Origin: Bispira polyomma
Taxonomy: Eukaryota
Reading direction: 5' to 3'
Length of the DNA: 64,000 nucleotides
Assembly: GCA_965649765.1 (NCBI GenBank)
Contig: OZ287748.1
Span: 34,596,001 to 34,660,000 of the forward strand
This document shows, piece after piece, positions 17,139 through 54,118 of the stretch. The notes under the pieces are model-generated. The model saw only the letters and a list, made by a program, of their open reading frames with translations. It searched no databases and had not been told where the DNA came from. A program made the translations under genes and the position numbers. Each line of letters opens with the position of its first letter. Positions within the stretch are counted from its first letter, which is position 1.

Positions 17139-20100
17139 CAATTCCCAGTGATGAAATATTTTGGTTGAAATAACGAAAGTTTGACTTTTAAGGTCATAGG
17201 TGAAAAGTCCAATGTTGCAGTTTGGACCTCAAGCTCAGAATATTGGTACCTTATAAGTTTCAGAAGTTTTTTTAGAACACAGTAAAAGATAGTTTGAGAT
17301 ATTTATTATTTACATATTAGTAGGTTATATAGATATATAATATCACAGAGGTAAGAATTTAAAATTTTACTAACAATATTAAAAGTCCCAAGCCAAACTA
17401 GGAAAATTGAGGGATAGCAGAGGCAAAGGTAAGTGGAACCACTGAAGCAGCTTTATGAGTAGAGTTCAAATATGTCCATACAGCAGAAGTCCTTCACAGA
17501 CCGTGTGACATTATATTCTGAAGAGACGCCTTATTATTGAAGGCAAAGGTTGCCCCTGACCTACGAAATGTATGAAAGCTATGTGGTTGTAAGGGTATGC
17601 CCAAGTGACTGAGGACCTGTTTCAAAGCATTTCTAATGTGTGAATCTACTATGGTTTTGTATGGAGGTTTTTGTGTTGTGAATAGTGGGTAAGAATTAAG
17701 TTTGAAGTATTCTAGAGCTAACTAATTTTTTAAGTGCTGTTCCTGGACACAGGACCTGGTTGTCTAACTGGGTGATCTGTATAATGTGAGCTTGGTCCCT
17801 ATTTTGTAAATTCTTCGCCCACTTTATTATAATGTGTGCCCCTGGTGGGCCAAATATTCCTTCCGAAGTAAATGTCTGGAAGGGTCAAATTTAGCAGTAG
17901 AGTGTGGGGCCAAGTTTGACATTCTAAGAAAGCCGAAAAAGGCTAACAAAAATATGGCCCTTTATAGTAGTGGATCATTCGAAATCACACATGTTTTGGA
18001 AATTGAAGATATATGTTGGATCTCAAAAATCCCTTTGGGGTGTAGTTTAAAGTGTAAGGTATGTTTCAAACTCCTAAGATACAGAGCAATACTGTTGTGT
18101 CAAAAGACTTGAATGTTCCATTGAAATTTGGTAGCCATAAATTTGATGACTGCCAAGTAGTTATTGATAACTTTTGGTGAGATGTGGTTCTGAACAAAGT
18201 ATTCTAAGAAAGCTATGAGTGAGTGAATTGAACATTGATGCACACCTGTATAATAAAAAAAATGCTAGAAATGTCTTAAATTGATTGTTGTAAGCTGCTG
18301 CTGTTGAAGGTCGCAGTACTGCATTAATTCTCTGGCAGGCTGTGTCTATGAATGGTTGTGTATGCCGAGTTGCACCTGGGATTATAAGTTTAAATCTCTA
18401 ATCTCATTAATTATGTGTGCATGGGGTGGGTTGTCCGAATATAGTCTGGACAACGCATCAGCAATGGTGTTTTTCTTCCCCTGTATATGTTGAATAGACA
18501 ATGTAATATCAAATGTGGCAGTAACAAGCCAGATTGTCCGTAGACAGTCTGCTAGGAAAGTATCTTTAGTTTTTTCGACCTGACAACCAACAACACGGCC
18601 ATGTTGTCACAATTGATCAAATTTTCTTATGAGCCCACTGCTGGCCCCAAACGCGAAGCGCGATAACGATGTTTACCATTTCCAAGTGTACAATGGAGAT
18701 GTCTTGCCCATATACATTTAAATATGGAGTAGCATATACTTGATTCACCTATATCGCACCCATGCCTGTTAAGCAGGCATCAAGGTAAATTGTGTGCATT
18801 ATTATATCCTCTATGGGTTTCATAAAAACGACACCATTAAATTTTGGGAGAAAATTCAGAAACCATTGTATGTCACTACGAATACTGTCGTCAAATCTAT
18901 TAGCTCCCGGGTTGTTTCTAAACTCCATCAATAGTCTATTTATAAAAATTCTGGCTGAATAAACACATTTGTGGACACACTAAAGTTTACCTGGGATGGA
19001 CTGAAATTTGTTGCATGAAATCCATTTCTTATGATAAACTTCCTTACATAATTGTAAAACCTCTGTAATTTTTTCCTGCGTGATACTGATAGTGCTCTCA
19101 TGTATGTTCACGTCAATACCTAGACACGTAACCCTGCTATCAGGTCTGGAGAGTTTGTCTTTATTAATGGGAAGACCTAAGCAGGCTAAGTCATACAAAA
19201 TCGCAAATGCTACGTTTGCCTTGTCTTTTGGCGATATACAAATGTAGTCGTCTGTGTAGCAATAAACGATGTGTCCCTTATCATGCATGATGTCAGCGAC
19301 TATATCAGAGCATCGCTGGAAAGCTGTGCTCCCATGAATCCTCCCAAACCCGACCACTGCGTCCACATAGTATTCGTTCTCCCAATGTATTCCAAATTTG
19401 ATAGCGTCAGCTGGGTCCACACGCAAATTACGAAATGCCCTGCTACGTCCAGTTTGAAAATCTGAGGGTCATTTGTGTTGTTAATCATGTGAACTATGTC
19501 GTCAATAGTGGGAAACTTCAACGCAAATTCAACCCCATCAAAACACCGCCTGTCTACATTGTCATTAACAGATTTGTTTTTCGGGTAAGACAAGTTCAGA
19601 ATTACACATCTCTTAGTAATATCCTTATGGCGAGTTAGGAGCAACTGTCAATTTTCTCAACTGGGCTCAACATGGCACCCAATGACTTTTCCTTTACTAG
19701 ATATCCATCCACTGCTGTTTTAAATTGCAGGGTAGAGTGATGATTTTCAATACTGCCCTCATTCAAACAATTCGGATTTGTAAGAGAAAGGGGAAAACCG
19801 AATTTAAGATACTGTAAAAGCAGTTGATCTGAATGGTCTTGTAGTACTTTATCCCAACCAGCAATGTTCAAATCAGATTGTATTGGGATGCGAGCCCCTT
19901 TATAATTGGCCAGTTACTTTTATCACACTAGCTATCTCGAGCAGTTGTTCAACCAAATCAATTTTTACAGCATTCCTGTCAGGGCCAGAAAATTCTATCA
20001 GCATTTTCAAAGAAGAATTCAGGTAAAACAGACGTGTGTTGTATATCACAATCAGCAGATATGCTGCCATTAGCAACATATGCTTGTTTACAGCCATTAC

Positions 20101-30787: not shown

Positions 30788-31309
30788 CAGTTCCTCGGGG
30801 TGTGGGCAAATGATAGAAGATTAACCAACAACACATAGTGAGAAAAGATTGCGGTTAAATACTTTTATTATATATATGATTTCTACTGCTAACATATTTT
30901 TATATACAGTTTCTTTGTAGAATAGGTAATACTGTTGTGGGCATAAGGTCCCCTTAACTCAAGTGAGTTTAAGGCCTTAAGCTTACACAAAGCTTGGGTT
31001 AAGGTGACCTCAGGTATAATGAGTTTAAGAGTATAAGTATGCCAAAGTTGAGTTTGAGTCCAAACTTAAAGGATCTGAGTTTAAGGTTGAGAGTTTAAGT
31101 TTGGTAGAAATTTTAATTTAAGGGCAAACTTAAGCGATTAAACTTTAAATTTATGCTAGTCTAAAGTTTGACTTAGGGTTTTAAGTCGAACTGTAGAAAC
31201 TTGAGTACAATATGTACTAATCTAATGAAGGGGGGGACCTTATGCCCAAAAAAGGTATAATATTTAATGTTATTTAGACATATCTTAAGCCTAAAATTTT
31301 AAGTTAGAC
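30788..31309 (-). repeat. Split direct repeat B2 (522 bp)
   Basis: Matches 32405-32926 with about 5 substitutions counted by eye. Confidence 0.95.
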
Positions 31310-31819
31310 CACTTGTATGTCGCTGTATATATATGTATATAACACTTCTCAAGTAACCATGGTACATGTAAGAACTGCAAGTACAAAGACTGCTAAAAGT
31401 TTAAAAAATTTAACAAATGTATAAAAGTTACAGGAAACCCAGGTTCCCACTAAAATAAATTTATAAAACAGGCAAGCCTGAACATCACAGTTTACTAAAG
31501 GTATAATGGACCATGTTTAAAAGAGTAATAGCCTTTGAATCACGTAAACCCACTGGCCAGTCGCTATTCTGATATCGTTGTCAGGCGGCCATCTTGAAAC
31601 CCAGATTCCATACATATAAAATGGAATTGTATTTTTAAACTTCCCTACTAGCTCAGTCTGCAAGCACCTTACGTGATCGACCAATATGATCCCTTACCCT
31701 ATGAAAACAAGAAAAACCAAAAACAAACAAAACTCAGTTGGGAAGTTACAGTGACATAAATTATTTAAGTAACAGTTATTTAATATATGATATCAACATC
31801 TGCAGGAATCTTGGTCCAG

Positions 31820-31925
31820 AAATACTGGGGCTCCATCATGATACTGAGGCTCCATGAAATACTGAGGCTCCGTGCAATACATTGAAGCATCCTGAAGACA
31901 ATACTGAGGCTTCAATAATACTAAA
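31820..31925 (+). repeat. Degenerate about 19-bp tandem repeat (ATACTGAGGCTCCATGAA-like) in the A2-B2 spacer
   Basis: About 5-6 ATACTG(A/G)GGCT units. Confidence 0.7.
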
Positions 31926-32249
31926 GCTAGAGAGAAGCACCACCACTATACAGAGAGGACCTGGCCCAGGCACGATTGTTTGCCATCACTGTTCATGAAA
32001 CACAGATAGAAGACACACAACAAGAAGCACAGACAAATCGGCCAGGTCCCAGCGCGATGCCACTCCAGCAAATACCACAGAGGTTAAACGCATCATGCAC
32101 ATCTACATGAGGAGCTTGCTTAACATCTGAAATGACACACACTTTTTTAAGCAAAAATCTGTAAGTCAGAGCTCCCGGGCTAGGTAACTATACATTAATA
32201 AGTCAGCCAGTATATCATATACATTTATCCCCAGGGGCAGTGGAGGGTG

Positions 32250-32404
32250 GGTATTTGAATTTTCCTAGTGCTCTGCTGACAAACGGTAAAAGGCGGGAGA
32301 ATTTGAAAGGGGAATGGCTTATATACCCGCCCATCCATCCCATAGTAGTGAACAGCCTGGTACCCCAGAACTGAGGCCGCCAACGCTGGGGGCGTTAGCT
32401 TTCA
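32250..32404 (-). repeat. Split direct repeat A2 (155 bp)
   Basis: Matches 42966-43120 with 2 substitutions; abuts B1 to form the CTTTCA|CAGTTCC junction. Confidence 0.95.
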
Positions 32405-32926
32405 CAGTTCCTCGGGGTGTGGGCAAATGATAGATGATTAACCAACAACACACAGTGAGAAAAGATTGCGGTTAAATACTTTTATTATATATATGATTTC
32501 TACTGCTAACATATTTTTATATACAGTTTCTTTGTAGAATAGGTAATACTGTTGTGGGCATAAGGCCCCCTTAACTCAAGTGAGTTTAAGGCCTTAAGCT
32601 TATACAAAGCTTGGGTTAAGGTGACCTCAGGTATAATGAGTTTAAGAGTATAAGTATGCCAAAGTTGAGTTTGAGTCCAAACTTAAAGGATCTGAGTTTA
32701 AGGTTGAGAGTTTAAGTTTGGTAGAAATTTTAATTTAAGGGCAAACTTAAGTGATTAAACTTTAAATTTATGCTAGTCTAAAGTTTGACTTAGGGTTTTA
32801 AGTCGAACTGTAGAAACTTGAGTACAATATGTACTAATCTAATGAAGGGGGGGACCTTATGCCCAAAAAAGGTATAATATTTAATGTTATTTAGACATAT
32901 CTTAAGCCTAAAATTTTAAGTTAGAC
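32405..32926 (-). repeat. Split direct repeat B1 (522 bp)
   Basis: Near-identical to 30788-31309. Confidence 0.95.
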
Positions 32927-32938
32927 ACCAAGCCCCAA

Positions 32939-33299
32939 ACTAGTAGGTGTTTTGTAGGACATTTTTAAAAGAATCTGCAACTTGAGTACCAGCATCAGCA
33001 GAGTCTGAGATGTAACATCACACGCAATCCGACGTCCAGGTGCCATGTTTTTGAATATCCTGAATCTTGACATTATTGTTAAACGCAAAGGTGGCACCTG
33101 AACGTCAGAAGGCGTGAAAGGTCAAGCCAGAGTATTGAGTACCAAGTGAGGATAGTACATTTTTGAGGTGTCTTCGCACACGTGTGTCCGTTAGTGGAAC
33201 CCACGAGCCTTGGAGTTTAAATTGAAATAATGAGAGATTTCTTCCTTTAGGTGAGATAACACAGCTTTCAAGGCCTGAATAGGACAAAGAGTTGAATTA
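32939..33299 (-). pseudogene. Outer element YR, C-terminal part
   Basis: NSTLCPIQAL..WVPLTDTRVRRHL..TFHAF*RSGATFAF..HGTWTSDCV*CYI; stop at a catalytic-motif Arg (CGA>TGA). Confidence 0.9.
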
Positions 33300-33957
33300 C
33301 AGTTCCCCGTGGGCCAAGGGAAAGTTGGTAATAGAAACCTTAATAATTTTCTAATTTCTTTAGCAACACAGAAAAACACTTGCGGGTAAATATTTATTAA
33401 TGACTAGCATGGTTAGTTCTACAGATATAGTATGTACAGTTTCAGATTATAGTTGGGGGGCATAAGGTCACCTTACAGTGAGTTAAAGTTTAAGGTGAAC
33501 GTAAAGTCAGTCTCAGTTTTTATATAACAATAAGGTTGACTTAAGGTCACCTTAACTAAAGAGCTTTGAGGGGGCCTAACGATGGCCCTAAATTGAGTTT
33601 AAGACTAGCAACCAATGTGTCAAGAGTATGCCAATGAAGGGGCACCGTTAGTGAGCCCGACTTAAATTTGAACTTAATTATGAACATACCTTGAGTTCAA
33701 GTCAGTATGGAAGTAAATGGGCCCGAACTGTTGGCCCTACCTTGAGTTTAAGGTTGATTTAAAGCATACTATGGAGGTTGCGAAGTGATTGGAAGATAAA
33801 TTATGTAAGAGTACATAATGTACCGAGATATAAGGTGACCTTATGCCCAAGGACAAGGGGGTTGTGAACTGTCCAAATTTATGTTTATTATACCACAACA
33901 TTTATATATTCTTTTTGCACAGGTGACCTATAGAAGTCAGACCACCAAACACCAGAG

Positions 33958-34944
33958 TTACCTAGAAGTAGGCTGAAGCGCACCCTTGAAGCAATCAGCG
34001 ACCTGGGACCCCGTCTGGGCCGAATCTGTAATGTACCTCCAGACGCAGTCCGACGTCCAGGTGCCATGCCGCTGAATGTCCTGTATGTTGACATTATTGT
34101 TAAAGGCAAACGTGGCACCTGAACGCCGGAACGCATGGAAAGTAAGGTTAGCATGACCACAGCTCAGGAGCTGCAGCACATTCTTCAAGTGACGCCGAAC
34201 CCTTGTGTCCGTCAACGGAACCCAAGCACCACCCAACTTATACTGAAAAAGAGGCATGTTAGGGCCACCAGGGGTAAGGGCCAGCACATTCTTCAGAGCA
34301 GCCACAGGACATAGGCATGAGTTCTGCAGGACTGGAATGTTTAACAGTTTAATTTGATTGTTCACCTGCATGGTCTTAGACCATTTTACTAAAAGAGTTA
34401 TGTACCCAGGCTTAAAAAGCACATCCCCTCTGGCCAAATGCTTCAATGGAGAGAACCCAGCCACAGAGTGTGGGCACAAATTGGAAAGCCTCAAGAAACT
34501 GAAAAAACTGGTCAGATAAACAGCCTTAAAGATCTGTCCCATATACGTGTTGTCGCATTTGGCAACCAATGCAGTTAACAAAGGAATATCAAACAATGTT
34601 TTAAGTTTGGCTTGTAAAGGCTTATTAATAGCAAGAGCCCTACTATAATAAGATATACGTGGATCTGCAAAGCAGTCCACATTTACATGAAAGAGAATGC
34701 ATTTCGCTTTAACAGCCGAAAGATGATTTGCAATTTGAGCAGCAGACATATGATTAAAAGTCAAAAACTCTAAAAAAGACAAAATCCTGAATACAGTCAC
34801 CTGATATAGAGGCCATTGCATGAAAGCTCCAAAGGCCAGGAAGAGTCTAAACATGGCATCATAGGCCCTGGCTGTTGATTCAGCAAAAGCAAAATGCAGT
34901 CTCTTGCAGGCTCTATTTGTGAACAGGGAGTCCAAAGGATGCAT
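33958..34944 (-). CDS. Tyrosine recombinase (intact) of copy 4
   Basis: 328 aa with catalytic R (FLRLSNL), K (KWSKT), HxxR (FHAFRR), HGTW and Y (WRYI). Confidence 0.93.
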   Translation of the reverse strand: MHPLDSLFTNRACKRLHFAFAESTARAYDAMFRLFLAFGAFMQWPLYQVTVFRILSFLEFLTFNHMSAAQIANHLSAVKAKCILFHVNVDCFADPRISYYSRALAINKPLQAKLKTLFDIPLLTALVAKCDNTYMGQIFKAVYLTSFFSFLRLSNLCPHSVAGFSPLKHLARGDVLFKPGYITLLVKWSKTMQVNNQIKLLNIPVLQNSCLCPVAALKNVLALTPGGPNMPLFQYKLGGAWVPLTDTRVRRHLKNVLQLLSCGHANLTFHAFRRSGATFAFNNNVNIQDIQRHGTWTSDCVWRYITDSAQTGSQVADCFKGALQPTSR

Positions 34945-34980
34945 TCCTGAAACATAGTACCACAGGAAGATACAACATCT

Positions 34981-37386
34981 TTAAATTGTGTAGTCAATGT
35001 CTAGGAGGGTGGCATCTGTGTGCAGCCAGTTAACCGACCCCACCCATTGAGCAAGTAAGTATTCATTATTATTCACTTTATCCCAACGTGAGAGAAGGTC
35101 TGCAACCTTGTTCTTCACACCCAAAATATGAATAACTCTTATGTCTATATCAAATTTGCTAGCCCACATGTAAATATTTCTGCTGTAGGCAGCCAGAACA
35201 GGATCTTGAGTATGCCCGGTTTCCATGACACTAACCACTGCCTGATTGTCACATTTAAAAATAACTTTTTTGCCTTGCCATACGTTGGACCATAGCTTGA
35301 GGGCAATGAGTATGTTGATAATTTCAAGCGAAGCTATATTGTCACTGGTCATGTGTGAGGGTACTTTAAGTTTGTACACGTCATTGCCACAGATGCCGCC
35401 CATACCGGTTAGACATGAATCTAATTCTACCTGTGCATGGGTACTCTTATGTGAAAAAAAAACACACGCCATTGAAATGCCTAATGAAGGTTCTAAACCA
35501 ATTTAAATCCCTGTTGAAGTCTTCAGTGACTATTAACCGACTTTTGCTATAATTGTCTCTGAGGAATTGCAACATACGGTTCAAAAAGACTCTAGCATAT
35601 TTAATGCATTTGGCCACATATAAGAGGGAGCCCAATAAGGACAATAATTCTTTTTTAGTACAAAATTCTTTCCCTTGCCACATTTCACACTTGTCTGTAA
35701 TTTCCTGCATTCTTCCGTCCGGGATAGAGGTGGTATAACTTTCAGTATCTATTAGTATGCCCAGGCATATTGCCCGTGTGCTGGGGGGAACCAACTTTTT
35801 CTGGCTGACCGTGAGGCCGAGCTCCTTGAGCAAGGCCTGAAGACGTTCGTAACTGGCTGTTATTTTACTTGGCAACGATACCGTCAAAAAATCGTCTATA
35901 TAGTTGTGTACTTTGTATCCCTCCGCCTTCATTATAAATCTTACAGCGTCAGAAAGACGCTGGAAAATAGTACTCCCATTCTGATACCCGAAGGGAAGAC
36001 ATTTATCGACGTAGAAGTCTTTCCATTTTAGGCCAAGTAGATTGATGTCACCTGGATCTATGGGAACGTGCCTAAAGGTCCAACTTACGTCAATTTTATA
36101 GATATGACATCCTCTATCCAATCTGGTTACTTCAGTAGTAATGTTATCAATGGAAGGATATGATAGAATAAAACCAGTGTCAAGGTAGGAGTTAGCAGAA
36201 GCACCTGCGTTAACCGAATGACCATGTGGCCAACCCAAATCGACTATTACTCTCCTATTAGCCAAGCTGGACTTCTCACGTGTCATCATCGGCGAACAAT
36301 GCAAGTCCCTAATAGGGGGCTCCTTGAAGGGCCCTAATATAGCCTCAAAGTTACATTCCTCATTCAGATACGTCTCCACATATTCTGGGAAAGTTTCCGC
36401 CGAACTATGGTTACAATTGTCCGACTGACTAACTTTTCCTCGACATACGTCTAAAGGGAAACCGTACTTAACGAGCAGGGGCAGTTGCCAGTCCCAATAC
36501 TTAGTGAGGTAATCTTGCCACTTCTTGGCATTTAATTGCGATTTGACCACAAGTTGGAGACCCTTATAATTGTGTCTGCCATCAACTCTTAATTTAGCAT
36601 GCATTTGGAAGGTATCTAGGCCATGATTTTTCGCCCCCCATCCCAAATTTTGCATCCTGACGTGTTAAGTGGAATGAATCCATAATCGACATCATTTTGC
36701 TCATGCCACGCCTTGTACGTCTCATCGTTCCGGGCTTTAGTTAGCAACTCCCGTTTATTGCATTTTTGCTTAAGCCCCAAAGCGTACTTGTCGGAAGGGG
36801 CAACTGAGTTATATGTTGGATTTGTGTTGACATTTCTGTCATTACCCTGATTCCCAGCATTGTCTTTAATCAATCGCCTTTTTTTCGCACCTTGCTGTGG
36901 CTTGTCATTAACACTCTCGTTTTTGTTGACACCATCCTCGACCTCCCCATTGTTGAGTTCAACAATGGTTTGGTAGAGGGGTTGGAATCTGTTATGCCAC
37001 AAGGCAGCTCGGTCGACACTATTATTCACTAGTGATTTATATGGGAGACATTCACTAACAGGCTTGGTACGTCCAAGCATTGTTTCCTTGGTGTATTTAC
37101 TTTGCCCCCGCCCACAGGTCTTTTGTTTGTTTTGCGTGGCCGGGACAGAGTAAACACGACACTTATTTACAGGTTAGCACACTTTGACACTTTTACTTTT
37201 ATTTACAACGACCTGTTTTCTTGTGCTATTCATATTTTGTAATGCGTCGCTGTATGAACAGCATGCACGTTTACCTTTATTGTAAGTGAGCATTTTACCC
37301 CTTACATCTTTATCAAATAACTCCAAATTACTAAATTCTGAGTTATAAAAAGTTCTTGAAAAAATTTTGTCTTTGCTATTTTCCAC
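34981..37386 (-). pseudogene. pol (RT + RNase H) of copy 4, several frameshifts
   Basis: ORFs 37174-37386, 36616-37080, 35447-36655 (LPFG, YIDD, CLGI) and 34981-35472 (DSC, E, CDN, NKVADLLSR). Confidence 0.92.
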
Positions 37387-37416
37387 TGCAGAATTGCAGT
37401 GGCCCCTTAGTTTTTT
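37383..37416 (-). promoter_or_regulatory. Putative -1 ribosomal frameshift signal, copy 4
   Basis: A_AAA_AAC, 7-nt spacer, stem CCACTGCA-attc-TGCAGTGG; the -1 frame runs into the pol ORF. Confidence 0.8.
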
Positions 37417-38431
37417 AGACTCTTCTTGCTACATGCACTGGATTTGTATGACCCCCCACAGGTTTCGCAAACATGTCTGAAGTAGGTATTCCCAGTTTTG
37501 TGACTATTGGGAAACTTGCACGTACCATCCTGAAAGAACTTGCAGTTCGCTGTGGACTGCTTACCTGAGGCCTGTGTTTTATTTGAACCATGAGTATTAC
37601 TACCAGAATTATTGCTAGCAATATGTCTCTGGGCATGAGCCCTTCTAAAACTATCAAGCTTCTCGACCTCTGACCATTTAACCTTCCCCATTTCCATGTG
37701 GGTGAGCACAACCGCATGGCAAGCTTTTGCCGACTCCCAAGAGAAATCCTCTGCATCTTCCATCAGATTAGCCATATAATCTAGTATCATTTCCCTAATC
37801 TCATTGGACTTTTCTTCCTGAATAATGCGCGTAAACCACATACCCATTGGTTGACTGATAAGTCATCATATGTGGGCCTTGATTTACAACTGCCCGTCAA
37901 GACATGGTTTTGGGGCCATCCTATGACGCATTTGACCAAAATATCAACGCCCCCTCCCCTTTGTGACTTTAGTTTACCTTGCTGTGGGTTTTCATTTAGC
38001 TGTTTTAACTCCGCCAGCCTTAATTCAACTTGGCTTTGAATTTGACTGTTGCTGCGTAAAAAGTCTATATTCGGAACTACAGTTTCAGTGGATAAAACTT
38101 CACTGGTATCGGTGCTCACAGAACTACTGTTAACAACAGAATTTGAAACAATACTAGCCTGATTCTTGTTGTGGACGTCCGCCGCCAGTGCTGCCTCTGT
38201 CTGCTGAACTCTCTGGTCCATCCGTTCCATCATCTGCGCCATGGACTGCAGTTGCAGTAAAATTTGACTAGAAACAATATCTGAACCTGAATTTGAAGCG
38301 AGAGTGGATGAATCCTCAGCAGAGACAGCACTAACAGTGGCTTCCACAGACACGGCTTCCAGAGTACAAGCATTGCCAACGGGCCTTTCATGCTTTTCTT
38401 GACACCTCGAACAATGATAAACCGGAGGCAT
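37407..38431 (-). pseudogene. gag-like ORF1 of copy 4 (one frameshift)
   Basis: N-terminal CxxCxxxHxxPxxxxC, coiled-coil-like segment, KSQRGG, WPQN, C-terminal Cys/His cluster. Confidence 0.88.
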
Positions 38432-38669
38432 TGTAAAGTTTAAAACTGATAAAATACACTAAAAGACTAAAAACAGAAAGAAAATCGGAAACATAAACTT
38501 GAATTTCCAAGATGTTCGTTCCAAAGTTGTTATTCTGTGAACACTATTGTTATAAATGGCGGGACGTTTGAATGAAGCTGCCTTATATACAGCCCGCAAG
38601 CAATGAAGCGTGAAGACTAAGACTGGTCCCCCAGAACTGAGAGCGCCAGAGCTGGGGCCCTGCCTTACA

Positions 38670-39292
38670 TTTATACTAGGGATGGTTAGCAAACAAACTG
38701 CATCATTTCTCTGCAGCGTCTTAGACCATTTAACCATTATGACTGCATACCCTGGCTTAAACAGAACATCCGCTCTAGCTAATTGCTTAAGAGGAGAGTA
38801 AGACCCCATTGAATGAGGACACAAATTGGATAAACGCAAGAAAGTAAAAAAAAAACTTATAATAAATAGCCTTAAAAATTTGGCCCATGTAAGTACTATC
38901 ACATTTACTAATGAGAGCCCTAAGCAAGTTTACATCAAAAATTGACTTCAATTTTGCTTGTAAAGGTCTATGCATGGCCAAGACTTTAGTGAAATAATAA
39001 ATTCTCTGATCAGAAAATACTTGAACATCTATATGACACATAACACATTTTGCCTTCACAGCCGAGATGTGATTTACTACCTTAGAGGCCGAAACACCAT
39101 TGAAATTTAGAAACTCTAAATATACTAGAATTTGCAACACAGTCACCTTGTGGGGAGACCAAGACATAAACGTTCCAAAAGCTAGGAACTGTCGGAACAT
39201 TCTGTCATATGCTTTATTAGTAGCAGAAGTGAGAGCTGAGTTCAGCCTATCACAAGCCCGTCTCATCAGAGCCAGACCCACAGGGTGAGTGC
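38670..39292 (-). pseudogene. Outer element YR, N-terminal part
   Basis: ORFs 38787-39281 and 38670-38902 (FLRLSNLCPHS, KWSKT), homologous to 33958-34944. Confidence 0.9.
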
Positions 39293-39317
39293 CTGGAAAA
39301 GAGAAAACTGTGACCTG

Positions 39318-41813
39318 CTATATAAGAGTATTCACATAGAGTAAATTTTCAGGGGCAGGAAGCCATTGAATTGGTCCAGCCAGTTGGTTCAATAATAGGT
39401 GGTTATTTTCTGTCTTGGCCCATCTGGAAAGTAAGTCAGCCACTTTGTTCTCTCTACCTACAATGTGGACTACAACAATTTCAATGTCAAACTTACTGGC
39501 TAACATGTATATGTTTCTGGTATAAGTGGCCAATATGGGGTCTCTAATACGGCCTGTCTGTAAGACACTGACTACTGCCTGATTGTCACATCTTACTAAA
39601 ATTCTCTGACCCTTCCATTTTTGGACCCATAACTTCATTGCTACCAAAATGTTCAACATTTCAAGAGAAGCTATATTATACTCTGTCATACTTGTAGGAA
39701 CTTTAATTTGGTATACTTGGTTTCCATAAATCCCCCCCATGCCTGTGAGGCAGGCATCCAATTGTATCTCGCCTGATATGGGTTCATGTAAGAAAAAGGA
39801 AACACCATTGAACTGCTCTGCAAAAGTTCTAAACCAATTTAAGTCACGTCTGAATGCATCACTTATTACAATTTTACTTTTACTGTGATTATCTCGTAGC
39901 AGTTCCAACATTCTATTCAAGAAAACCCGAGCTTACTTAACACATTTAGAGATATATAGCAAAAGGCCCAGTAAAGACTAATTCTCTTTTGGTACAATAA
40001 TTTTATGAAGCCCAATCCCTGCACTTGCTCTGAATTTCTGCCATTTTTCCGGAAGGGATAGAAGTTGTGCATTTGACTGTGTCGATTATTATGCCCAAGC
40101 ATACTACCTCAGTGCTGGGTGGAACCAATTTTTTTCTGACTAACTGTGAGACCTAGTTCAGCAAGTAATTCTTGCAGTCTTATAAATGTTTTCTGAATTT
40201 TGCTGGGAAGTGATACACATAAAAAATCGTTGATATAATTGTGGACGTTATGATTTTCGGAGTGCATTATGAAACGCACTGCATCCGAAATTCGTTGAAA
40301 AATAGTGCTGCCATTCAAATAACCGAATGGCAGCGATTTATCGACATAGTAAGATTTCCACTTCAGCCCTAAGAGGTCAATGTCGCCAGGGTCAATGGGG
40401 ACGAAACGCCCTACTCACGTCTATTTTAAATATCTGACACCCCTTACCCAATTTAGACACTTCAGTGGTGAGATGATCAATGGAAGGGTAAGACAGTAAA
40501 AAATCGACACCCAGATACGAAGTCGACAAAGCCCCTGCATTTACGGAAGCCCCTTGAGGCCAACTCAAATCCACAATCACAAGTCGGTTGATCGAGTTGG
40601 GTTTATGTTGGGTCATTAAGCGGGCGCAATGCAAATTCTGAATTGGTGGAGTGTCGAAAGGACCAAGCATTGCCCCAAAGCCACATTCTTCCTTCATATA
40701 GGCGTCTACATGTTGAGGAAATTCCTCTGCTGACTTATGGTTATTGTCATTCGACTCAGTGTGAATTTTTCGACACACATCAAGAGGGAATCTGTATTTT
40801 ATAAGGAGAGGCAGTTGCCAATCCCAGTATGTTTGTAAATACTTTTCCCACGTTTCAGCTTTTAATTGAGAATGGACAGGAATCTGGAGGCCAGTATAAT
40901 TATGCCTGCCATCAAGACGTATTTTCTTGTGCATTTCTAACATGGATAGTTCGTGCCCTCCCCCACCATGGTCGGCAATCTCACCGCCCAAAGCCGAGAG
41001 AGGAATAAATCCATAAGCATGACTACTCTGGTCCTGCCATTTTTTGTGTGTTGGATTCGAGGCCGCCTTCTGCAGCAACTCCCTTTTATTTTTCTTGTGC
41101 TTTAAAGCACACGAATACTTATCAGAGATTTCAACATTTTCATTCACACGTTCTGCGCAAGTACTTGTCTCTTGGTGCTTTGCAAAGCCCCCATTGTTAC
41201 CCGGCGTGTTACTAGAGCGAACGGCCCTCACAATGACTGCATTGTCCTCCACAGGTATCTGTGCCAACGCGGAAAAACGATTGCTAAGCTGAAGGCCACA
41301 GTTAGCTTCATTGACGCGGCTCTTTTCGCCCCCCCTCTGAATTGATTTTCTAACATCTTTTGTCTCCACGCCCTGTTGCTTTGTGCATGGGGGTCGTTTC
41401 ACAATAGGTGTCACTTTGTTAACCACTTGAATGGAGGTGCCAATTACAGGTGTTAACTTTTCAAACCTTTGAATAGATGTGGCAGCAGAGGTGTTAACAT
41501 TATTCTTGAGTTCATCTCTGCCAACCTTTTGTGGTTGGCAAAATCTGCCCTTTGTCACCTTTCCAGAGCTGAACCTGTCAACCCCACCCTTATGGCTCCG
41601 ACTTTCTGTATGTTCAGTACTATATACAAACATTGATTTCCTGGTACTAGCAGTACTTTTTAAAGCATCACTATAACTAACATCAGGCCTTTTGACCTTC
41701 ATATAGCTACACATTTTCTGATACACATTTTTTCCCAACAAATGAAAATCTTTAAAACCTGTGCTGTAGACAGTTCTATTTACAACCTTAAAATTTTTCA
41801 CCTTTTTAACCAC
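39318..41813 (-). pseudogene. pol (RT + RNase H) of copy 3, frameshifted
   Basis: IDVSRAFR, YIND (mutated YIDD), QLDACLTGMG, RCDNQ, NKVADLLSR. Confidence 0.92.
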
Positions 41814-41843
41814 TGCATCAGAGCAGTGGCCCCTCAGTTTTTT
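41810..41843 (-). promoter_or_regulatory. Putative -1 ribosomal frameshift signal, copy 3
   Basis: A_AAA_AAC, 7-nt spacer, stem CCACTGC-tctgat-GCAGTGG; the -1 frame is continuous with the 473-aa pol ORF. Confidence 0.8.
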
Positions 41844-42879
41844 GCCTCTTTTTTGTTACATATACTGGTCTTATGACTACCCCCACAAGTCTCACAACCA
41901 TGCCTATACATCTGCCACCCTGTGTTGTGTGAACTAGAGAACTTGCAAGTCCCTTCCTGGAAGAACCTGCAAGGTGTCGACTTTTTCAGACTAGTTTTAC
42001 TGCTGCCAATGCTAACAGCACAGCCATTCGCCCCATGCATAGATCTCGACACACCTACATGACGTTGGGCGTGTGCCCTGCGAATCCGGTCGACCTTCTC
42101 GACATCCAACCACCCGAGCTTGTCCATTTCCATATTGGTCAGGACTACCGCGTGGCAGACCTTCGCCGCCTCCACGAAAAGTCTTGGGCGTCCTCCATGA
42201 GGCCACTCATATAATCTAGCATAGCGTTCTTAATTTCAGTTGACTTCTCCTCCTGAGCGATCCGGGTGAAGCCACAAACCCATTGTACAAGGGTTAGGTC
42301 ATTATAACTAGGGCGAGTCTTCGAGCTGCCCGTCAGCACATAATTCTGGGGCCATTCGACCGCCTTCTTTACAATAACCTCGTTTCTCCCAGTTCTCTGA
42401 GACTTAATTTTACCTGAGGGGTTTTCATTAAGAGACCGAAGTTCCTTTAACCTCTGTTCGACTTGCAACTGAATGTGAGCGTTCTGATTCAAGAATTCGA
42501 TACTCGGAACGACAGTATCTGGGCCAGTAGGTGGGCCTTTACCTTCGTCAGCAGAGACTAGCTCTTTAGAAACACTAGGAGTAATGCTAGAAGGAACGGT
42601 ACTTGCCTTACTACTGGTGAGGTTGGCTGCTAACGCTGCCTCTGTCTGCTGGACTCGTTGATCCATCCTCTCGACCACCTGACTAAGTGATTGTAACTGC
42701 TGTAGTATAGCACTAGATACGGCCTCGTTCGGATGAACCAGCGAGTCCTCATGAGAGCCAGCGTCAACCCCCACTCCCTCACCTGAGATATCAAGCATAT
42801 TAACCGAACATTTTCTTCCAACCGGTCTCTCATGCTTTTGCAAACATTTAGGACAAAACACAGTCTTTTTACCTGGCAT
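41834..42879 (-). pseudogene. gag-like ORF1 of copy 3 (one frameshift)
   Basis: CPKCLQKHERPVGRKC, KSQR, WPQN, C-terminal CRFFQEGTC..H..HGCETCGGSH. Confidence 0.88.
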
Positions 42880-42965
42880 GACTTGAGTGTATATTGAATT
42901 AAAATACTAAAACCACATAACAGTATAAAACATAAACCATAAAACACTCTCTTTGTCACCCAAAC

Positions 42966-43120
42966 GGTATTTGAATTTTCCTAGTGCTCTGCTGACAAAC
43001 GGTAAAAGGCGGGAGAATTTGAAAGGGGGATGGCTTATATACCCGCCCATCCATCCCATAGTAGTGAACAGCCTGGTACCCCAGAACTGAGGCCGCCAAC
43101 GCTGGGGGCATTAGCTTTCA
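42966..43120 (-). repeat. Split direct repeat A1 with candidate TATA box (TATATAA, 43041-43035)
   Basis: Matches 32250-32404; TATATAAG also at the same place in copy 4 (about 38582-38589). Confidence 0.9.
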
Positions 43121-43530
43121 AAATGGCTCATGCTCGGATGCCCAGATTTTAACAGATCCGTGCTAAAGAGCAAATAGAGGACCACTCAATCAACCTTCCC
43201 CCTTAAACTATTAGGCCTGTCAGAGCCCCTGTCCCCTACTTCATCCTGGGAGATGACACGTTTGCCTTTAAGACATGGTTGATGAAACACTACTCCCTAC
43301 AGGGGATGGATATGAATGAAAGGTTTTACAATTATAGGATCTCCAGAGGTCGAAGGGTGGTTGAAAATGTATTTTGGATTTTACTTCAGAGATTCTGGGT
43401 GCTTCTGTCAACGATGCAGCAGGAACCACCAGTGGTGACCACCATAGATTTAGCATGTGTGGTCCTGCAAAATGTGATGAGGACTGCAGCTATCAACATA
43501 GCTAATCCATGTAATCCAGAAGATGTCCCA
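43121..43530 (+). pseudogene. PIF/Harbinger transposase, 3' half
   Basis: NGSCSDAQI, YFILGDDTF, WLMKHY, FYNYRISRGRRVVENVF (second D and E of the DDE triad). Confidence 0.92.
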
Positions 43531-43539
43531 CCTGTCGCT

Positions 43540-43795
43540 TTTGAATTTGAATTTGGATATTTGACGTCCACTCTAGTACCTTTTAGTAGGTTATATTGGG
43601 ACGAGTAGTTGGAAACGCTGGAGGAAACACTGTACACAGTTGGTCAAGGTTCTGCACTGAAACCAGCGGCCCACAGTAAGGAACTACCACCTTTCCCACA
43701 TAAGCATCGACAGGATTTGAACTCACGCCGCCCAGCGGTGAGAGACCAGTGATTGTGAAGTGCAATGCTTGCTAACCATTGGGCCACTGCGGCCT
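43540..43795 (-). mobile_element. tRNA-derived SINE, second copy
   Basis: Reverse complement of 4464-4717; TSD CCACCTGTCGC / CCACCTGTTGC. Confidence 0.88.
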
Positions 43796-48900: not shown

Positions 48901-51900
48901 TATTCTGGCAGATCACAGTCTTCTTCACACCTATATCTATCAAAGACGGTTACGAGAAAGCAAATAACATTTTAGTTGTGTCCTTTTCAATTTCCGGGTG
49001 TGCTATTCCCGAATTTGGGCTAACTGCAAAATGGACTGTTTCAGGTTACCAGTCTCAGCGTTGCTATGGTTTCTTCTTTGTAGTAAACAAATCAGAGTTC
49101 ACGTAGCACTTTCTCGATGTGTAAGAGATGAAAATGGATATATTTGACAAATATTGTGTATGCAGGCGATGCTGTGAGATCTGGGGAGAGTTCTCACTGT
49201 GATGACGGATTAGAAATGAAGAAGGTTTACGACTACTGATAGCAGAATCCCTGTATATAAGATGGGGTAAGTCCTGGTTTTTCTACGTCTTCCGAGTTTG
49301 GATACTAAAAGAGATGTTGGGAGGACGATCCTGTTACCGACTACAGTAGCTTGTCAAATTCAGCACGACGAGATATCTGAATTTGACAGTGTTTCTAGCC
49401 GAAATAGATATATTTGGGTGGCGTTAGATGTCTAGTACTCTCATTTTCTGCTCTCGAGTTCAAAGATTCGTCTGATTCAACGGATTTGTTTTGAAGAATC
49501 ACCAGTACATGAGTGATAATAGGTGGTGCTAAGGCCGACCTTTATAGCCTTATTTTGTCCATTTTGCAGACATTTGGGAGCTCTATGAGGTGGAATCAGT
49601 TCTCTCACAAATTTATTTGAATACTAACATAACCGGATTATTATCCATACTTAGGTACATGGGTGGCTTAAGGGCCTACTTTCATATCCTAATGAATTTG
49701 GAGTTGCAGAGATTCATTTCATCTTCATTTTTAATCGTTGAATTTTTGGGAAGAGTTCTACATCATATATCGCAACTCGCAGATTTAGACTTGTCAATTC
49801 ATATTCAGAGGTATTTCAAAAGATACAGGAACTGAATTACTCAGAAGATTGTAATCTACAGGCTACATGGGTGGTGCTTGGCGCTGATTTTCATGTGTTT
49901 ATTTTTGTGATTCATCCGTGAATGTGAAGTCTCCCACAATTATATCATATTTTTTATGTCCATGGACTGGCTGTTGCTTATATAAGGTCAGAAATTGATG
50001 TCACATACTGAATCGAATTTCTAGACTGTCATTTCCTTTTGAAGCAGGATCTTTTGTGACTGTATAGTATATAAGCAGACTGTAGTTCAGATCACAATAA
50101 AAAAATTTATGTCCTTAATACGGGGTCATGTTTAGTTCAATAAATGCAGTATTTTTGGAAGTTTACCTATGGGAATCCAAAATGAAATCAAGCAAAACAA
50201 TTTCAGAATATCTCTAGGAGATGCATGTTGATTTAAATTGAATGTCGATAATCATACAAATCTATGCTCTTAACATAGAGGCATTAAGCTGTTTCTGGAT
50301 CATTATGCTTTTGTTATAGTGTCAGTTGATATAGTGTCTTAGTCATAAGATGGTGAGGCAAAGAATTTATGACCATTGCTGAGTATGCAAGGTAGACCCA
50401 GTGGGGGTACTGAGATCAGTGCTCGCCTTAAATATTCTTGTTAAGTCTATTCTGGTTGGAATGACCTTAATTGCTGATTGGATAGCAGTTGGCCTAATTC
50501 TCACCTTTTTTCCCGCTAAAACTCCAATAACCTCACTTTAAATTTAGAATTTGGAAGGGCACAACGCCATTTTAAATATCTTTCAATTCTAGTCAAGAAA
50601 ATTTTATTTTTTATTACTTGCTTTTATGTTACATTTTACACAGTTTTTGTACTTAACCGAGTGCTTACATATGTTCTAGACAAAGGATGGTTGCAGTGTG
50701 GAATATATAAACTGAACTTGCTGGCTCCTGTGGATGTGTTATTAGTCAATGCTTTGACATATGCGAATTTTGCTCTTTCTGGGCTACAGTTGAGGGCTGT
50801 TCTTATTGTTATTTGAAATTTATCATATTTATTTCTCGAAATCACAAACAACCTCCACCTTTAATTCGCATGTTACAAAGCACTGCTTGCTCTATATTTA
50901 CAGAATGGCACCTTGTGCAAATCATGATTGTCGTGCTTGCAAGACAAGTCACAAAAAACCCATAAACGATAACTGTCCGTTTATTAATCAGTCTGAAGAC
51001 AATGACACTAATGACACTTCTACTACACCTATTAATGCACGTATTTTAGAAGAACTAAAAGGGTTAAGTGGAAGAATGTCAGCCATGGAGAAACGGGTAG
51101 AGCAATCCGAAAATAGACAATTTGTTGCTAGCTCTACAGTAAGCCCTATAAATGTTGCCCCATGTGGAATTCCCGCACTAGCTGCAATTGCTCTACAGAC
51201 TGCTCCCACATTGATGCTGCCTACGGCCACCCAGACGGCTCCTACTGTACCTGTGACCACAGACGACACACTAGTTCCTTCCCTGGCTACTCTTAAGACA
51301 TCCGAGTACCTCCAGAATGCTGTAGATTCCAGACTGCAGGACTTAGCCAGCCTCAACGAAAAAGGTAATGTCAAATCTCAGAGAGGGGGCCAGAAACGGG
51401 GTGGGTAAAACCCCAGGTCCCCTGGCCACAGAACAATATTTTAGGAGGTACAACTAAGTCAAGAACCACATATGATAGTTTATCGATGGCTCAGTGGGTC
51501 GCAGGATTTTGCTCTATTGTTCGGGATGAAAATAACATTGAGACAAAAAATGCAATGTTAGATTATGTAAAAGACTTAATGGAGGACTGCAATGATTTCT
51601 CTTGGGTGGCTGCCAAAGGGAGTCATGCGGTACTTCTATGTCGTATGGAAGAGGGCAAAGTTACCTGGGAAGAAATGGCCAAAATAGACCGAATCAGAAG
51701 GGCGCATGCAAAAAGAGTGGTAAACAATACGGTTTCTTTCTCTCAATACAGTAGGACTAGACAGCAAAGTAATGAAAAGGGAATACCTTGCAGGTATTTT
51801 CAAAAGGGTTCGTGCCCACAAAGAACGGATCATGAAACAAAGGGTCAGATGTACTTACACATTTGCTCTACTTGTTTCACCATTGGGAAGTCTTATCCCC

Positions 51901-51952
51901 ATGCCTCTATGGATTGCCACAGAAATAAAGTGAAAAGTGACCAGAATGTCGC

Positions 51953-51986
51953 AAAAAACGAGTAAGGCACTGCAGTACAGCAGTGC
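51953..51986 (+). promoter_or_regulatory. Putative -1 ribosomal frameshift signal, copy 5
   Basis: A_AAA_AAC, 7-nt spacer, stem GCACTGC-agtaca-GCAGTGC. Confidence 0.78.
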
Positions 51987-52915
51987 ACAAATGTAAAAAA
52001 CTGAATACTGATCATGAATTTGTATATATAAGAGATCAAAAGAAATATTGTAATACTAGAACTGTATATAATGTAAATCACCAAGCTGTGTGTAGTGACA
52101 ACTGGAGGGCAGATTGAGCTAGATTCATTAATAAATCTTATGCACAAGTCGTGGCTCAAAATACAGGTAGAGTAAATAATAATCAAAACATACATCAGAA
52201 TCCCACCTCCAATTGTCACACACCCGCGAAATGTCAAATGTACAGTGATGTATGTCCTAGTAATGTCAGTAGTTACAGGAATTCAAGGCAACAGGTAGAA
52301 AGGGTGAAAGTTGGCACCTCTCAAGGTGTGAAACCTCTCATTCAAAAAACCCCCCTCTCCACTCTTACACCCAGGGGCCAAAGCCCCCCCTCTTATAAAG
52401 GTAGGACAGAAGGTGTCACAAAAATGTCACACAAATCAGGTGATAAAGTGGGTTGCCAAAATAATCAATTACACTGTCAAAACAGATTTGCACCTCTTCA
52501 CAATTTGAGCATTGATAACAAATACAAATTCTTGTAGTCAAAGTAGTCCAGCTGCACAGCCGGGTGATAAATATGCTCTGCAACTCCAGGTAAAAACGAA
52601 ACACAGAGATGCTGTGTCACTGGCACAAGATAAGAAATTGTTCAAAGCCTGGAATAGGCAAAATAAGGAAAAATTTGGGTTTATCCCCTTGGGGGATGCA
52701 AAATTGCCTAAAGAGGTTAAGGCTCGACCACACTTAGTCGACCCCCTACTAGGGGAAAAACTACTAGAACGTTACTGGGATTGCCAGTTAATACATCTGA
52801 TCAAATTTGGGTTTCCCCTAGATTTTGATAGGACTTGCCCCCTAGAGAATAAAGGGGAAAATTAAGTTGTCCTCAGGGTCGAGCAGTAAATTCAGCAATA
52901 CAAAAAGACCAATAT

Positions 52916-54118
52916 TTGGGTACTCCTTTTATTCTCACCCTTCCTACAGTTGACGACATTACTAAAAATGTGATTAAACTGGGAAAAGGTGTGCTGTTAT
53001 ACAAACTAGACATTAGTCGGGCATTTAGACAAGTCAAAATTGATCTGGCAGATTATGATTTATTAGGTTTACAATTAAATAATTACTACATAGACACTTG
53101 CTTGCCATTTGGATATCGGCACGGAAGCGCAATCTTCCAGCATCTCAGTGACGCCATAAGGTTTATTATGACGTCACATGGTCATGACGTCATCAACTAT
53201 ATTGATGACGTGATAGGATATGGACTACCGGATTCAATTTCCCAGTCATTTGAACTATTAAAAGACACGTTTCACAAGTTAGGCTTTGCCATAAGTGAAA
53301 AGAAGATGGTAGCCCCCAGTACAAAAGTAATATGCCTAGGCGTACTAGTCGATACAGAGAATTTCACAGTGTCAATCCCAGATAACAAATTAGATAAAAT
53401 TAAGCAAATATGTAAAAGTTGGAAAGACAAAAAAGTCTGTAATAAACGGCAGCTACAATCACTATTAGGCTCTCTCTTATGTGTGTCAAAATGCGTTAGA
53501 ACCTCCAGGGTATATCTGAACCGAATGTTAGATACTCTCAGAAGGGCCAGAGATGCCAACAGCATTAAACTAGATATTGCCTTTCAACAGGATTTGAACT
53601 GGTTTGATACATTTCTTACGACCTTTAACGGGGTCGCCTTTTTCGACCATAAACCTGTCACTGATGAAGTACATTTAGATGCCTGTCTGCAAGGTTTAGG
53701 CGCTTGTTGCAATAATGAAATATACACTGAACAGATACCATTGGGTTACAATAATTATACCATTGTCCATTTGGAAATGTTAAACATATTGGTTGCCATA
53801 AGAGTCTGGAAAAATCACTGGTCGGAAAGAAAATTACTAATTCATTGTGATAATCAGGCTGTGGTTTCAATTTTAAACTCAGGTAAAACCTATGACTTCA
53901 CTTTGGCCGCAATAACTAGAAATATTTTCATGGAGGCGACCCAGGTTGACATTGTACTAAGAACAGTCCACATTTTGGGAAAAATGAACAATACCGCGGA
54001 TCTACTATCTAGATGGACAATTACACCCAATAATGTTGACAAACTAAGCGAATTAGTAAAAAACCCCACATGGCTTCAGGTCAAAGATGACCTGCTACAG
54101 ATAAATTGGGCTATCTAG
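52916..54118 (+). CDS. RT-RNase H open segment of copy 5
   Basis: 400 aa uninterrupted: LDISRAFR, LPFG, YIDD, DAC, CDN, ADLLSR. Confidence 0.88.
   Translation: MGTPFILTLPTVDDITKNVIKLGKGVLLYKLDISRAFRQVKIDLADYDLLGLQLNNYYIDTCLPFGYRHGSAIFQHLSDAIRFIMTSHGHDVINYIDDVIGYGLPDSISQSFELLKDTFHKLGFAISEKKMVAPSTKVICLGVLVDTENFTVSIPDNKLDKIKQICKSWKDKKVCNKRQLQSLLGSLLCVSKCVRTSRVYLNRMLDTLRRARDANSIKLDIAFQQDLNWFDTFLTTFNGVAFFDHKPVTDEVHLDACLQGLGACCNNEIYTEQIPLGYNNYTIVHLEMLNILVAIRVWKNHWSERKLLIHCDNQAVVSILNSGKTYDFTLAAITRNIFMEATQVDIVLRTVHILGKMNNTADLLSRWTITPNNVDKLSELVKNPTWLQVKDDLLQINWAI

What the first reader, a model, noticed from the sequence alone, without database searches (positions are those of the whole stretch)
34947..37977. 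Conserved phase-1 intron would fuse the Gag N-terminus to the tyrosine recombinase in Ngaro-like elements
Seen in sequence: all five gag copies have AG|GTAA inside the Gly codon just before K(S/R) in the G-x-x-K-S-Q-R region. The sites are ACAG|GTAATG (10638), CAAG|GTAAAC (37977), TCAG|GTAAAA (42413), AAAG|GTAATG (51365) and CAAG|GTAATA (62973); the Gly codon is GGT in 5/5 despite strong divergence around it. All four copies that keep the RNase H/YR boundary have a pyrimidine-rich CAG just after the pol stop: ATCCCAG| (18376), TGTTTCAG| (34947), TTTTCTCTTTTCCAG| (39293) and TATTTTTCAG| (54131). Every acceptor is phase 1 and in frame with YR, giving QQ-G-MHPLDSL (copy 4), PS-G-THPVGLALMRR (copy 3) and EK-G-SSTWVNRL (copy 5); the copy 2 acceptor opens G-ATRHTQPF. 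No start ATG is conserved at the head of the YR ORFs. Inference: YR is made from a spliced subgenomic mRNA as a fusion with about 150 aa of Gag (CCHC zinc finger plus coiled coil), which could recruit it into the particle or supply DNA binding or oligomerisation. Spliced subgenomic RNAs are established for retroviral env and copia gag; I am not aware of a Gag-YR splice described for Ngaro elements, but I could not search the literature.
Basis: partly seen in the sequence, partly recalled or inferred. Interest (0 to 1): 0.92.

Follow-up and report, generated by a model that had tools for sequence, protein, structure and literature searches.

The report
Spliced Gag-recombinase fusion in retrotransposons
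A large group of mobile elements in this genome keeps a splice donor inside its gag gene and a matching acceptor just ahead of its start-less recombinase gene, so the integrating enzyme is most likely made by splicing as a fusion to the front of Gag, a route not found in the papers searched and not yet seen in RNA.

Summary
The elements are Ngaro-like tyrosine-recombinase (YR) retrotransposons. In 80 other copies (30 families) the Gly codon at the gag site is GGT in 29 of 29 families (control Gly 6/26 and 4/26). A T-rich YAG sits in phase 1 exactly 28 codons before a YR landmark (71/80 copies). Coding selection in the YR frame starts at that AG, and no start codon is conserved there. A held-out, more distant clade gave 20/20 acceptors and 12/12 donors. 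The pol-to-YR frame varies, so read-through is not general. A distant element in a metagenome contig has both sites, and another contig carries an exact in-frame join at a YR acceptor, but to an exon not shown to be gag. Pol follows a conserved -1 frameshift signal. Best reading: Gag, Gag-Pol and a spliced Gag(N)-YR of about 480 aa all start at one ATG (0.85). Not shown: any junction read, and what the Gag part does. This scan noted related spliced plans in other genomes (unchecked notes). The two main reviews were not held.

The parts
37978..38431 (-). Copy 3 gag exon 1: ATG to donor, 151 codons plus one base; C-x2-C-x3-H-x7-C finger, long helix, variable linker, helical segment
37972..37980 (-). 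Copy 3 phase-1 donor AAG|GTAAAC inside the Gly codon of G-K-L-KSQRGG
   Evidence: conservation
34947..37977 (-). Copy 3 predicted intron, 3031 nt: rest of gag and all of pol (both broken by frameshifts in this copy)
37383..37416 (-). Copy 3 A AAA AAC slippery site plus hairpin at the gag stop: predicted -1 frameshift into pol
34947..34955 (-). Copy 3 phase-1 acceptor TGTTTCAG, just after the pol stop
33958..34946 (-). Copy 3 YR exon, 328 codons after the split codon; complete Cre-like recombinase
33299..38669 (-). Copy 3 as a whole: repeat A at 38517-38669, ends at the B/A boundary; inserted within the YR gene of copy 4
42414..42879 (-). Copy 4 gag exon 1 (155 codons), donor CAG|GTAAAA at 42413
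39293..42413 (-). Copy 4 predicted intron, 3121 nt; slippery site at 41843-41837; acceptor TTTTCCAG at 39293
38679..39292 (-). Copy 4 YR exon, first part (broken; continues at 33298-32946 beyond the inserted copy 3)
30788..43120 (-). Copy 4 split direct repeats: A1 42966-43120, B1 32405-32926, A2 32250-32404, B2 30788-31309
   Evidence: (98.7% and 99.0% identical pairs)
50905..51364 (+). Copy 5 gag exon 1 (153 codons), donor AAG|GTAATG at 51365
51365..54131 (+). Copy 5 predicted intron, 2767 nt; slippery site 51953-51959; acceptor TTTTTCAG at 54131
54132..55054 (+). Copy 5 YR exon (one internal stop)
10633..10641 (-). Copy 1 donor CAG|GTAATG in a truncated element
18376..18384 (-). Copy 2 acceptor TAATCCCAG, 6 nt after the pol stop, in a decayed, more distant family
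62968..62976 (-). Copy 6 donor AAG|GTAATA in a decayed, more distant family (G-N-K-R-K-KSGQ)

Best explanation
These are Ngaro-like YR retrotransposons that make three proteins from one promoter and one ATG. Unspliced RNA gives Gag and, by a -1 ribosomal frameshift at the gag stop, Gag-Pol; it is also the template for reverse transcription. A share of the RNA is spliced from a phase-1 donor in gag to a phase-1 acceptor 6-37 nt after the pol stop, which removes about 3 kb and joins the first 130-230 Gag residues to the whole recombinase (mostly 460-510 aa in all). Shown from sequence: both sites, their phase, their conservation beyond protein need, coding from the acceptor onward, the frameshift signal. 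Inferred: that this donor pairs with this acceptor in vivo. Inferred more weakly (about even odds): the Gag part, shared by all three proteins, co-assembles through its long helix and so brings the recombinase into the element's RNP or particle; its Cys/His finger may also bind DNA, like the extra N-terminal domain of some integrases (recalled).
For: Donor: GGT in 29/29 families against 6/26 and 4/26 at control Gly codons; the preceding codon ends in A in 27/29, including 11 of 12 four-fold codons, against 24% background; no other AG|GT(A/G) site is shared by more than 3 families from -90 to +330 nt, ungapped. Acceptor: 71/80 copies, WTNYAG in 27/28 families against 0.7% background, no other AG in the 12 bases before it in 71 copies, and the split residue varies (G15 D8 A3 V1 E1), so the letters are kept and not the amino acid. 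Five of the 9 misses keep the motif, shifted by an indel. Coding starts at the AG: stops 1/756 codons after it against 24/336 before; pN 0.15 against pS 0.63 in the 27 codons before the landmark, the same as further in (32 related pairs). Only 8/28 families have any Met before the landmark. Prediction written down first and met in a clade at most 52% identical in the exon head: acceptor 18/20 by the first anchor rule and 20/20 after two mis-set anchors were corrected, donor CAAG|GTAAG 12/12 where gag was in the stretch, no Met at the landmark+3 position in any of 20. The donor lies just after helix 129-152, between two modelled domains; the YR exon alone is a full Cre-like fold (E 7.8e-7). Other organisms: L116 has both sites in the same positions (read by eye); G or V at the split position in 17 of 17 database YRs long enough to show it; L121 and L122 match unspliced L123 from exactly its acceptor onward and carry a 139-codon ATG frame joined there in phase 1. 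Frameshift signal in 56 of 69 gag-bearing copies, with pol in the -1 frame where both frames are long.
Against: No junction between this donor and this acceptor was seen in any sequence. Most donors of the first set lack +5 G, so they are weak by the recalled consensus. Pol and YR are in frame in 12 of 22 families, more than a third. A Met at codon 31 of YR is conserved in 70/71 copies of the first set. The exon joined to the acceptor in L121 is not shown to be gag and is not preceded by the L123 family's repeat, so it shows use of the acceptor, not the gag pairing, and its donor cannot be seen. In L112-L114 the shared donor-like site lies at a different place in gag. Families are related, so counts overstate independence.
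Confidence: 0.85

Rival explanations
1. Both sites are real but not paired with each other: the acceptor is served by another upstream donor (5' untranslated region, or a neighbouring element), and the gag donor does something else, such as U1 binding that guards the full-length RNA or splicing to a non-coding 3' exon.
For: L121 shows a YR acceptor joined to an exon that may be foreign to that element. In plant copia elements the gag donor also controls premature termination through U1 (section titles of PMC5580714).
Against: YR needs an upstream ATG in phase 1 and the gag donor is phase 1. No donor-like site upstream of it is shared across families in the 33 copies with an intact exon 1. The two sites are kept together in both clades.
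Confidence: 0.07
2. YR is made by stop-codon read-through or a frameshift from pol, as a Gag-Pol-YR polyprotein.
For: Window copies 3, 4 and 5 and 12 of 22 families have YR in frame with pol. Three database proteins have pol and YR in one frame. PMC3783388 notes YR either in frame or shifted in fungal Ngaro groups.
Against: 10 of 22 families are out of frame, in both directions; relatives of copy 3 are in frame 1; none of 20 held-out copies is in frame and 16 have the stop 6 nt before the AG; the spacer often holds further stops. It does not explain the donor.
Confidence: 0.03
3. YR has its own transcript or internal start and begins at its own Met (codon 31 in the first clade) or at a non-ATG codon.
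For: Met at landmark+3 in 70/71 copies; ATG right after the acceptor in the copy 3 family.
Against: The 27 codons before the landmark are under the same coding selection as those after. That Met lies in the middle of helix 22-41, is Met in only 34 of 76 database YRs and is absent in 20 of 20 held-out copies, 14 of which have the next Met 50-52 codons further on.
Confidence: 0.04
4. The motifs are by-products of protein conservation and codon bias or of shared descent.
For: G-x-x-KS is conserved as protein in other organisms; the families are related.
Against: Silent positions are fixed at the donor but free at Gly codons a few residues away; the acceptor lies outside any conserved frame and its split residue varies; silent sites elsewhere have diverged (pS 0.63 even among the closer pairs).
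Confidence: 0.01

Closest known systems
Ngaro-like tyrosine-recombinase retrotransposons (order DIRS)
   Same: gag, RT/RNase H, YR in that order; split direct repeats A1-ORFs-B1-A2-B2; no methyltransferase, integrase or protease domain found (definitions from passages of PMC4157794, PMC9210276, PMC3783388, PMC8547959).
   Different: The passages read treat YR as a separate third ORF and give no route for its expression; here it is a start-less exon. A spacer of about 0.7-0.9 kb lies between A2 and B2, and no hydrolase ORF follows YR.
Plant Ty1/copia spliced subgenomic gag RNA (PMC5580714, abstract and outline seen)
   Same: A conserved splice in a retrotransposon sets the ratio of structural to catalytic protein while unspliced RNA is the genome.
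   Different: There the spliced RNA makes Gag alone; here it would make the integrating enzyme, fused to half of Gag.
Retroviral env and foamy-virus pol subgenomic RNAs (recalled, no call)
   Same: A 3' gene is reached by splicing over gag-pol, with a weak donor that leaves unspliced RNA.
   Different: Those donors lie before or at the very start of gag and add few or no Gag residues; here about 150 Gag residues with folded parts are kept.
Three-domain tyrosine recombinases such as Tn1549 integrase and lambda Int
   Same: The YR exon matches the two-domain core of Cre, Xer and Tn1549 Int 82-397; the fusion would add an N-terminal module in front, as those integrases have (role recalled).
   Different: The added module is borrowed from Gag by splicing; no likeness to arm-binding domains was tested.

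Membership tests
Ngaro-like | Tyrosine recombinase as integrating enzyme | tested here: met
   PF00589 below cut-off (E 0.01 and 3.5e-4) and SAM-like domain PF13102 above cut-off in L062; model matches Cre over the full length, E 7.8e-7; H-x-x-R and Tyr conserved
Ngaro-like | RT and RNase H in pol, after a gag-like ORF | tested here: met
   PF00078 above cut-off; RNase H-like PF13456/PF17917; ORF maps
Ngaro-like | Split direct repeats A1 ... B1 A2 B2 | tested here: met
   Copy 4 in the window; L061, L062; copy 3 family. A spacer separates A2 and B2.
Ngaro-like | No methyltransferase domain after RNase H | tested here: met
   Pol ends about 35 codons after the last RNase H motif; no such Pfam family on the 840-aa pol frame of L062
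Ngaro-like | Groups with reference Ngaro elements in an RT tree | not testable with these tools
   No named reference Ngaro sequence came from any call
PAT-like | Methyltransferase domain with split direct repeats | tested here: not met
   Repeats present, domain absent
DIRS1-like | Inverted terminal repeats and internal complementary region | tested here: not met
   Terminal repeats are direct
Spliceosomal intron | GT donor and YAG acceptor with exon-side AG, T-rich tract, AG-free zone, matching phase | tested here: met
   (consensus itself recalled)
Spliceosomal intron | Removed from RNA (junction reads) | not testable with these tools
   The three runs offered behave as DNA

The most novel reading that the evidence does not exclude
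Across Ngaro elements the recombinase is made only as a spliced fusion to the N-terminal half of Gag, and that Gag module steers it to its target DNA. This would give a physical reason for the report that Ngaro copies lacking ORF1 differ in where they sit (Cafeteria, PMC8547959 section 11), and would mean that the 'third ORF' of these elements is an exon and that no Ngaro recombinase has been annotated with its true N-terminus.
Probability: 0.3. Interest if true: 0.9.

Novelty: new variant of a known kind. Interest (0 to 1): 0.78.

Why it matters
How YR retrotransposons express their last ORF, the enzyme that integrates them, is not answered in the papers read. The finding gives exact junctions that one RNA-seq alignment or RT-PCR can test, and with the conserved -1 frameshift signal it gives a whole expression plan (Gag, Gag-Pol, Gag(N)-YR) for a widespread but little-studied group. 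It changes the predicted recombinase from about 330 to about 480 residues, which matters for anyone who annotates or studies these enzymes, and it offers a route by which Gag could affect packaging or target choice in elements that have no protease.

Tried and rejected
RNA: no RNA holder listed. The three runs offered cover all 30 bins like DNA; none of the 15 joints shown matches the three predicted junctions, and 496 joints were not shown. Neither result bears on splicing. Fused proteins in databases: none among the best 150 of 515 Gag-N hits, 1 longer hit that is plain Gag, best 120 of 800 YR hits all 379 aa or shorter, 3 longer YR hits that are pol-YR frames, not Gag-YR; these hits come mostly from long DNA contigs, so this is weak. 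Intron-less copies in this genome: none among 26 scored candidates of the copy 3 family, the 80 + 30 + 31 loci mapped, or five long YR frames and one long gag frame checked on purpose; only best-scoring copies are returned, so rare ones can be missed. Gag fold: no match at E 0.001 in PDB, only generic long-helix matches at Z 5 or less; no usable Atlas hit for Gag-N or the L121 exon; no Pfam family for Gag. L121's first exon was not found in this genome with one query. No relative in viral contigs. The two exons were modelled separately, never as one chain, so contacts between them are open. Branch points were not analysed. Literature: ten searches gave no paper describing a gag-YR splice; Goodwin and Poulter 2004 and Poulter and Butler 2015 were not held, and no supplement was read, so an earlier mention there cannot be excluded.

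Full report
1. The observation. All nine sites are in the sequence as described. The window holds six copies of a gag-pol-YR retroelement at different stages of decay. It lies on contig C1 of a 1.04-Gb eukaryotic assembly with hundreds of related copies. Donors split a Gly codon after its first base. Each of the four acceptors leaves two bases of a codon in the YR frame and lies 28 codons before the same Tyr. Predicted introns are 3031, 3121 and 2767 nt.

2. What the elements are. Pol has RT (PF00078) and RNase H and ends about 35 codons after its last RNase H motif; Pfam finds no methyltransferase, integrase or protease. The YR exon models as a full Cre-like recombinase (pLDDT 70.7; best match E 7.8e-7 over 327 columns). 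Ends are split direct repeats: copy 4 has A1, B1, A2 and B2 within the window, and L061 and L062 show the same. These features define Ngaro-like elements in the passages read (PMC4157794; PMC9210276; PMC3783388; PMC8547959). An RT tree with named references could not be made.

3. The donor across the genome. I fetched 80 copies chosen by YR match, spread over the identity range of two searches (80 of 274 hits). They fall into 30 families at 80% DNA identity. The gag motif mapped in 69; two were dropped as mis-mapped or deleted. GT is present in 64 of 67 (three G-to-A changes), AG|GTA in 61, and the next codon begins with A in 67 of 67. By family the Gly codon is GGT in 29 of 29, against 6 of 26 and 4 of 26 at the two Gly codons a few residues on. 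The codon before ends in A in 27 of 29, across Q, K, T, A, S, P and R, including 11 of 12 four-fold codons against a 24% background. No other AG|GT(A/G) site from -90 to +330 nt is shared by more than 3 families, and none upstream is shared across families. Most of these donors lack +5 G, so they are weak by the recalled consensus, which would suit an element that must keep unspliced RNA (inference). Thirty further copies picked by gag match, all of the copy 3 family, gave GT in 27 of 30.

4. The acceptor. AG lies at the predicted base in 71 of 80 copies; two of these (L031, L092) are deletion junctions and were left out of family counts. Of the 9 misses, 5 keep the motif shifted by an indel, 3 are deletions and 1 has lost the G. 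The context is WTNYAG in 27 of 28 families against 227 of 33,516 nearby positions, no other AG ends in the 12 bases before it, and the residue of the split codon varies (G15, D8, A3, V1, E1). Three-base periodicity begins at the AG; stops are 1 of 756 codons after it and 24 of 336 before; pN/pS in the exon head (0.15/0.63) equals that further in (0.16/0.63; 32 related pairs). Only 8 of 28 families have a Met between the last stop and the landmark Tyr.

5. Results against, and rivals. In window copies 3, 4 and 5 YR is in frame with pol behind one stop, and this holds in 12 of 22 families; but 10 of 22 are shifted, in both directions, so read-through cannot be the general route, though it could add to it in some families. 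A Met three codons after the landmark is conserved in 70 of 71 copies of the first set. It lies mid-helix, after 27 codons under selection, and is Met in only 34 of 76 database YRs.

6. Held-out test. I wrote the prediction down, then fetched 20 of 150 hits of a more distant clade, mostly with long open YR frames (14 families, at most 52% identical to the first set in the exon head). The acceptor was at the predicted base in 18 of 20 by the first anchor rule and in 20 of 20 once two anchors set in the wrong frame were corrected. The donor was CAAG|GTAAG in 12 of 12 copies whose gag motif was found in the stretch; in 8 it was not found. None is in frame with pol, none has the Met at landmark+3, and 12 of 20 have no Met in the exon head.

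7. Other organisms. Of 120 database YRs, 17 were matched and long enough to show the split position; it is G in 15 and V in 2. Of 16 metagenome loci, L116 has a phase-1 donor and acceptor at the same places; L111-L114 and L119 have strong phase-1 acceptors; L112-L114 share a donor-like site later in gag (read by eye). L121 and L122 match the unspliced L123 from exactly its acceptor onward, with a 139-codon ATG frame joined there in phase 1. This is the only joined form seen. It supports use of such an acceptor, but the exon is not shown to be gag, its donor is not visible, and a chance deletion is not excluded.

8. How it most likely works. Gag ends in A AAA AAC plus a hairpin in 56 of 69 copies, with pol in the -1 frame: the recalled form of a -1 frameshift signal. 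So one ATG would start Gag, Gag-Pol and, after splicing, Gag(N)-YR of 459-555 aa (25 copies with both exons open, by arithmetic). The Gag model (pLDDT 79.6, pTM 0.44) puts a Cys/His finger, a 42-residue helix, a disordered linker and helices up to residue 152 before the donor, and a separate helical domain and further Cys/His motifs after it, so the splice falls between domains. YR retrotransposons lack a protease (PMC3783388 passage), so the fusion would not be cut by the element. I think it most likely that the shared N-terminal module brings the recombinase into the Gag assembly (about even odds), with target binding as the next option; neither is tested.

9. What is known. Ten searches found no description of a gag-YR splice. 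I saw keyword passages of PMC7192593, PMC4157794, PMC9341512, PMC3783388, PMC9210276, PMC6681497, PMC2632668, PMC13465315, PMC3266345 and PMC5718144, passages and section 11 of PMC8547959, and the abstract and outline of PMC5580714; no supplements. The founding paper and main review were not held. PMC5580714 shows a conserved splice that makes Gag alone in plant copia elements. PMC8547959 reports that loss of ORF1 goes with a different insertion pattern in Cafeteria Ngaro elements, which a Gag-YR fusion could explain (inference across distant lineages). Three unchecked notes of this scan describe spliced plans in YR retroelements of other genomes; they are leads, not support.

10. Verdict. The element type is known; the expression plan appears undescribed and can be tested directly. 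New variant of a known kind; interest 0.78.

Noticed in passing
window 37416-37383 (-), 41843-41810 (-), 51953-51990 (+): A AAA AAC followed after 6-7 nt by a CACTGC/GCAGTG hairpin at the gag stop, in 56 of 69 gag-bearing copies of the first set: a -1 frameshift signal for Gag-Pol. The same pattern was not evident in the held-out clade.
   Followed up: partly
window 33299-38669 inside 30788-43120: Copy 3 (one A-to-B unit) is inserted in the YR gene of copy 4, in the same orientation; copy 4 keeps all four repeats. Other loci also show neighbouring or nested copies.
   Followed up: partly
L121:1894-2460, L122:1-270, L123:985-1060: Two metagenome contigs carry a 139-codon ATG frame joined in phase 1 exactly at the YR acceptor of a related unspliced element; a GDSL/SGNH hydrolase ORF lies upstream in L121. 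Whether this is RNA or a processed DNA copy, and what the first exon belongs to, is unknown.
   Followed up: partly
L112:2718, L113:658, L114:1461: Three distant elements share a phase-1 donor-like AAAG|GTAC at FSSK^GT, later in gag than the site studied here, and have strong phase-1 acceptors before YR: the donor may have moved during evolution.
   Followed up: partly
G000, and one search hit lists: Several families have ten or more copies with identical scores and open YR frames, a sign of recent spread.
   Followed up: no
L158-L177: In this clade the pol stop sits 6 nt before the acceptor AG in 16 of 20 copies, so the stop codon is part of the acceptor's upstream tract.
   Followed up: no
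window 1852-3030 (-): Single-exon 393-codon frame of a rhodopsin-family receptor, PF00001 E 6.9e-21.
   Followed up: no
window 43207-43605 (+): DDE_Tnp_4 transposase fragment in a stretch with very high read depth, with a second copy at 4466-4720.
   Followed up: no
window 55999-56778: Diverged tandem repeat of about 95-100 nt.
   Followed up: no
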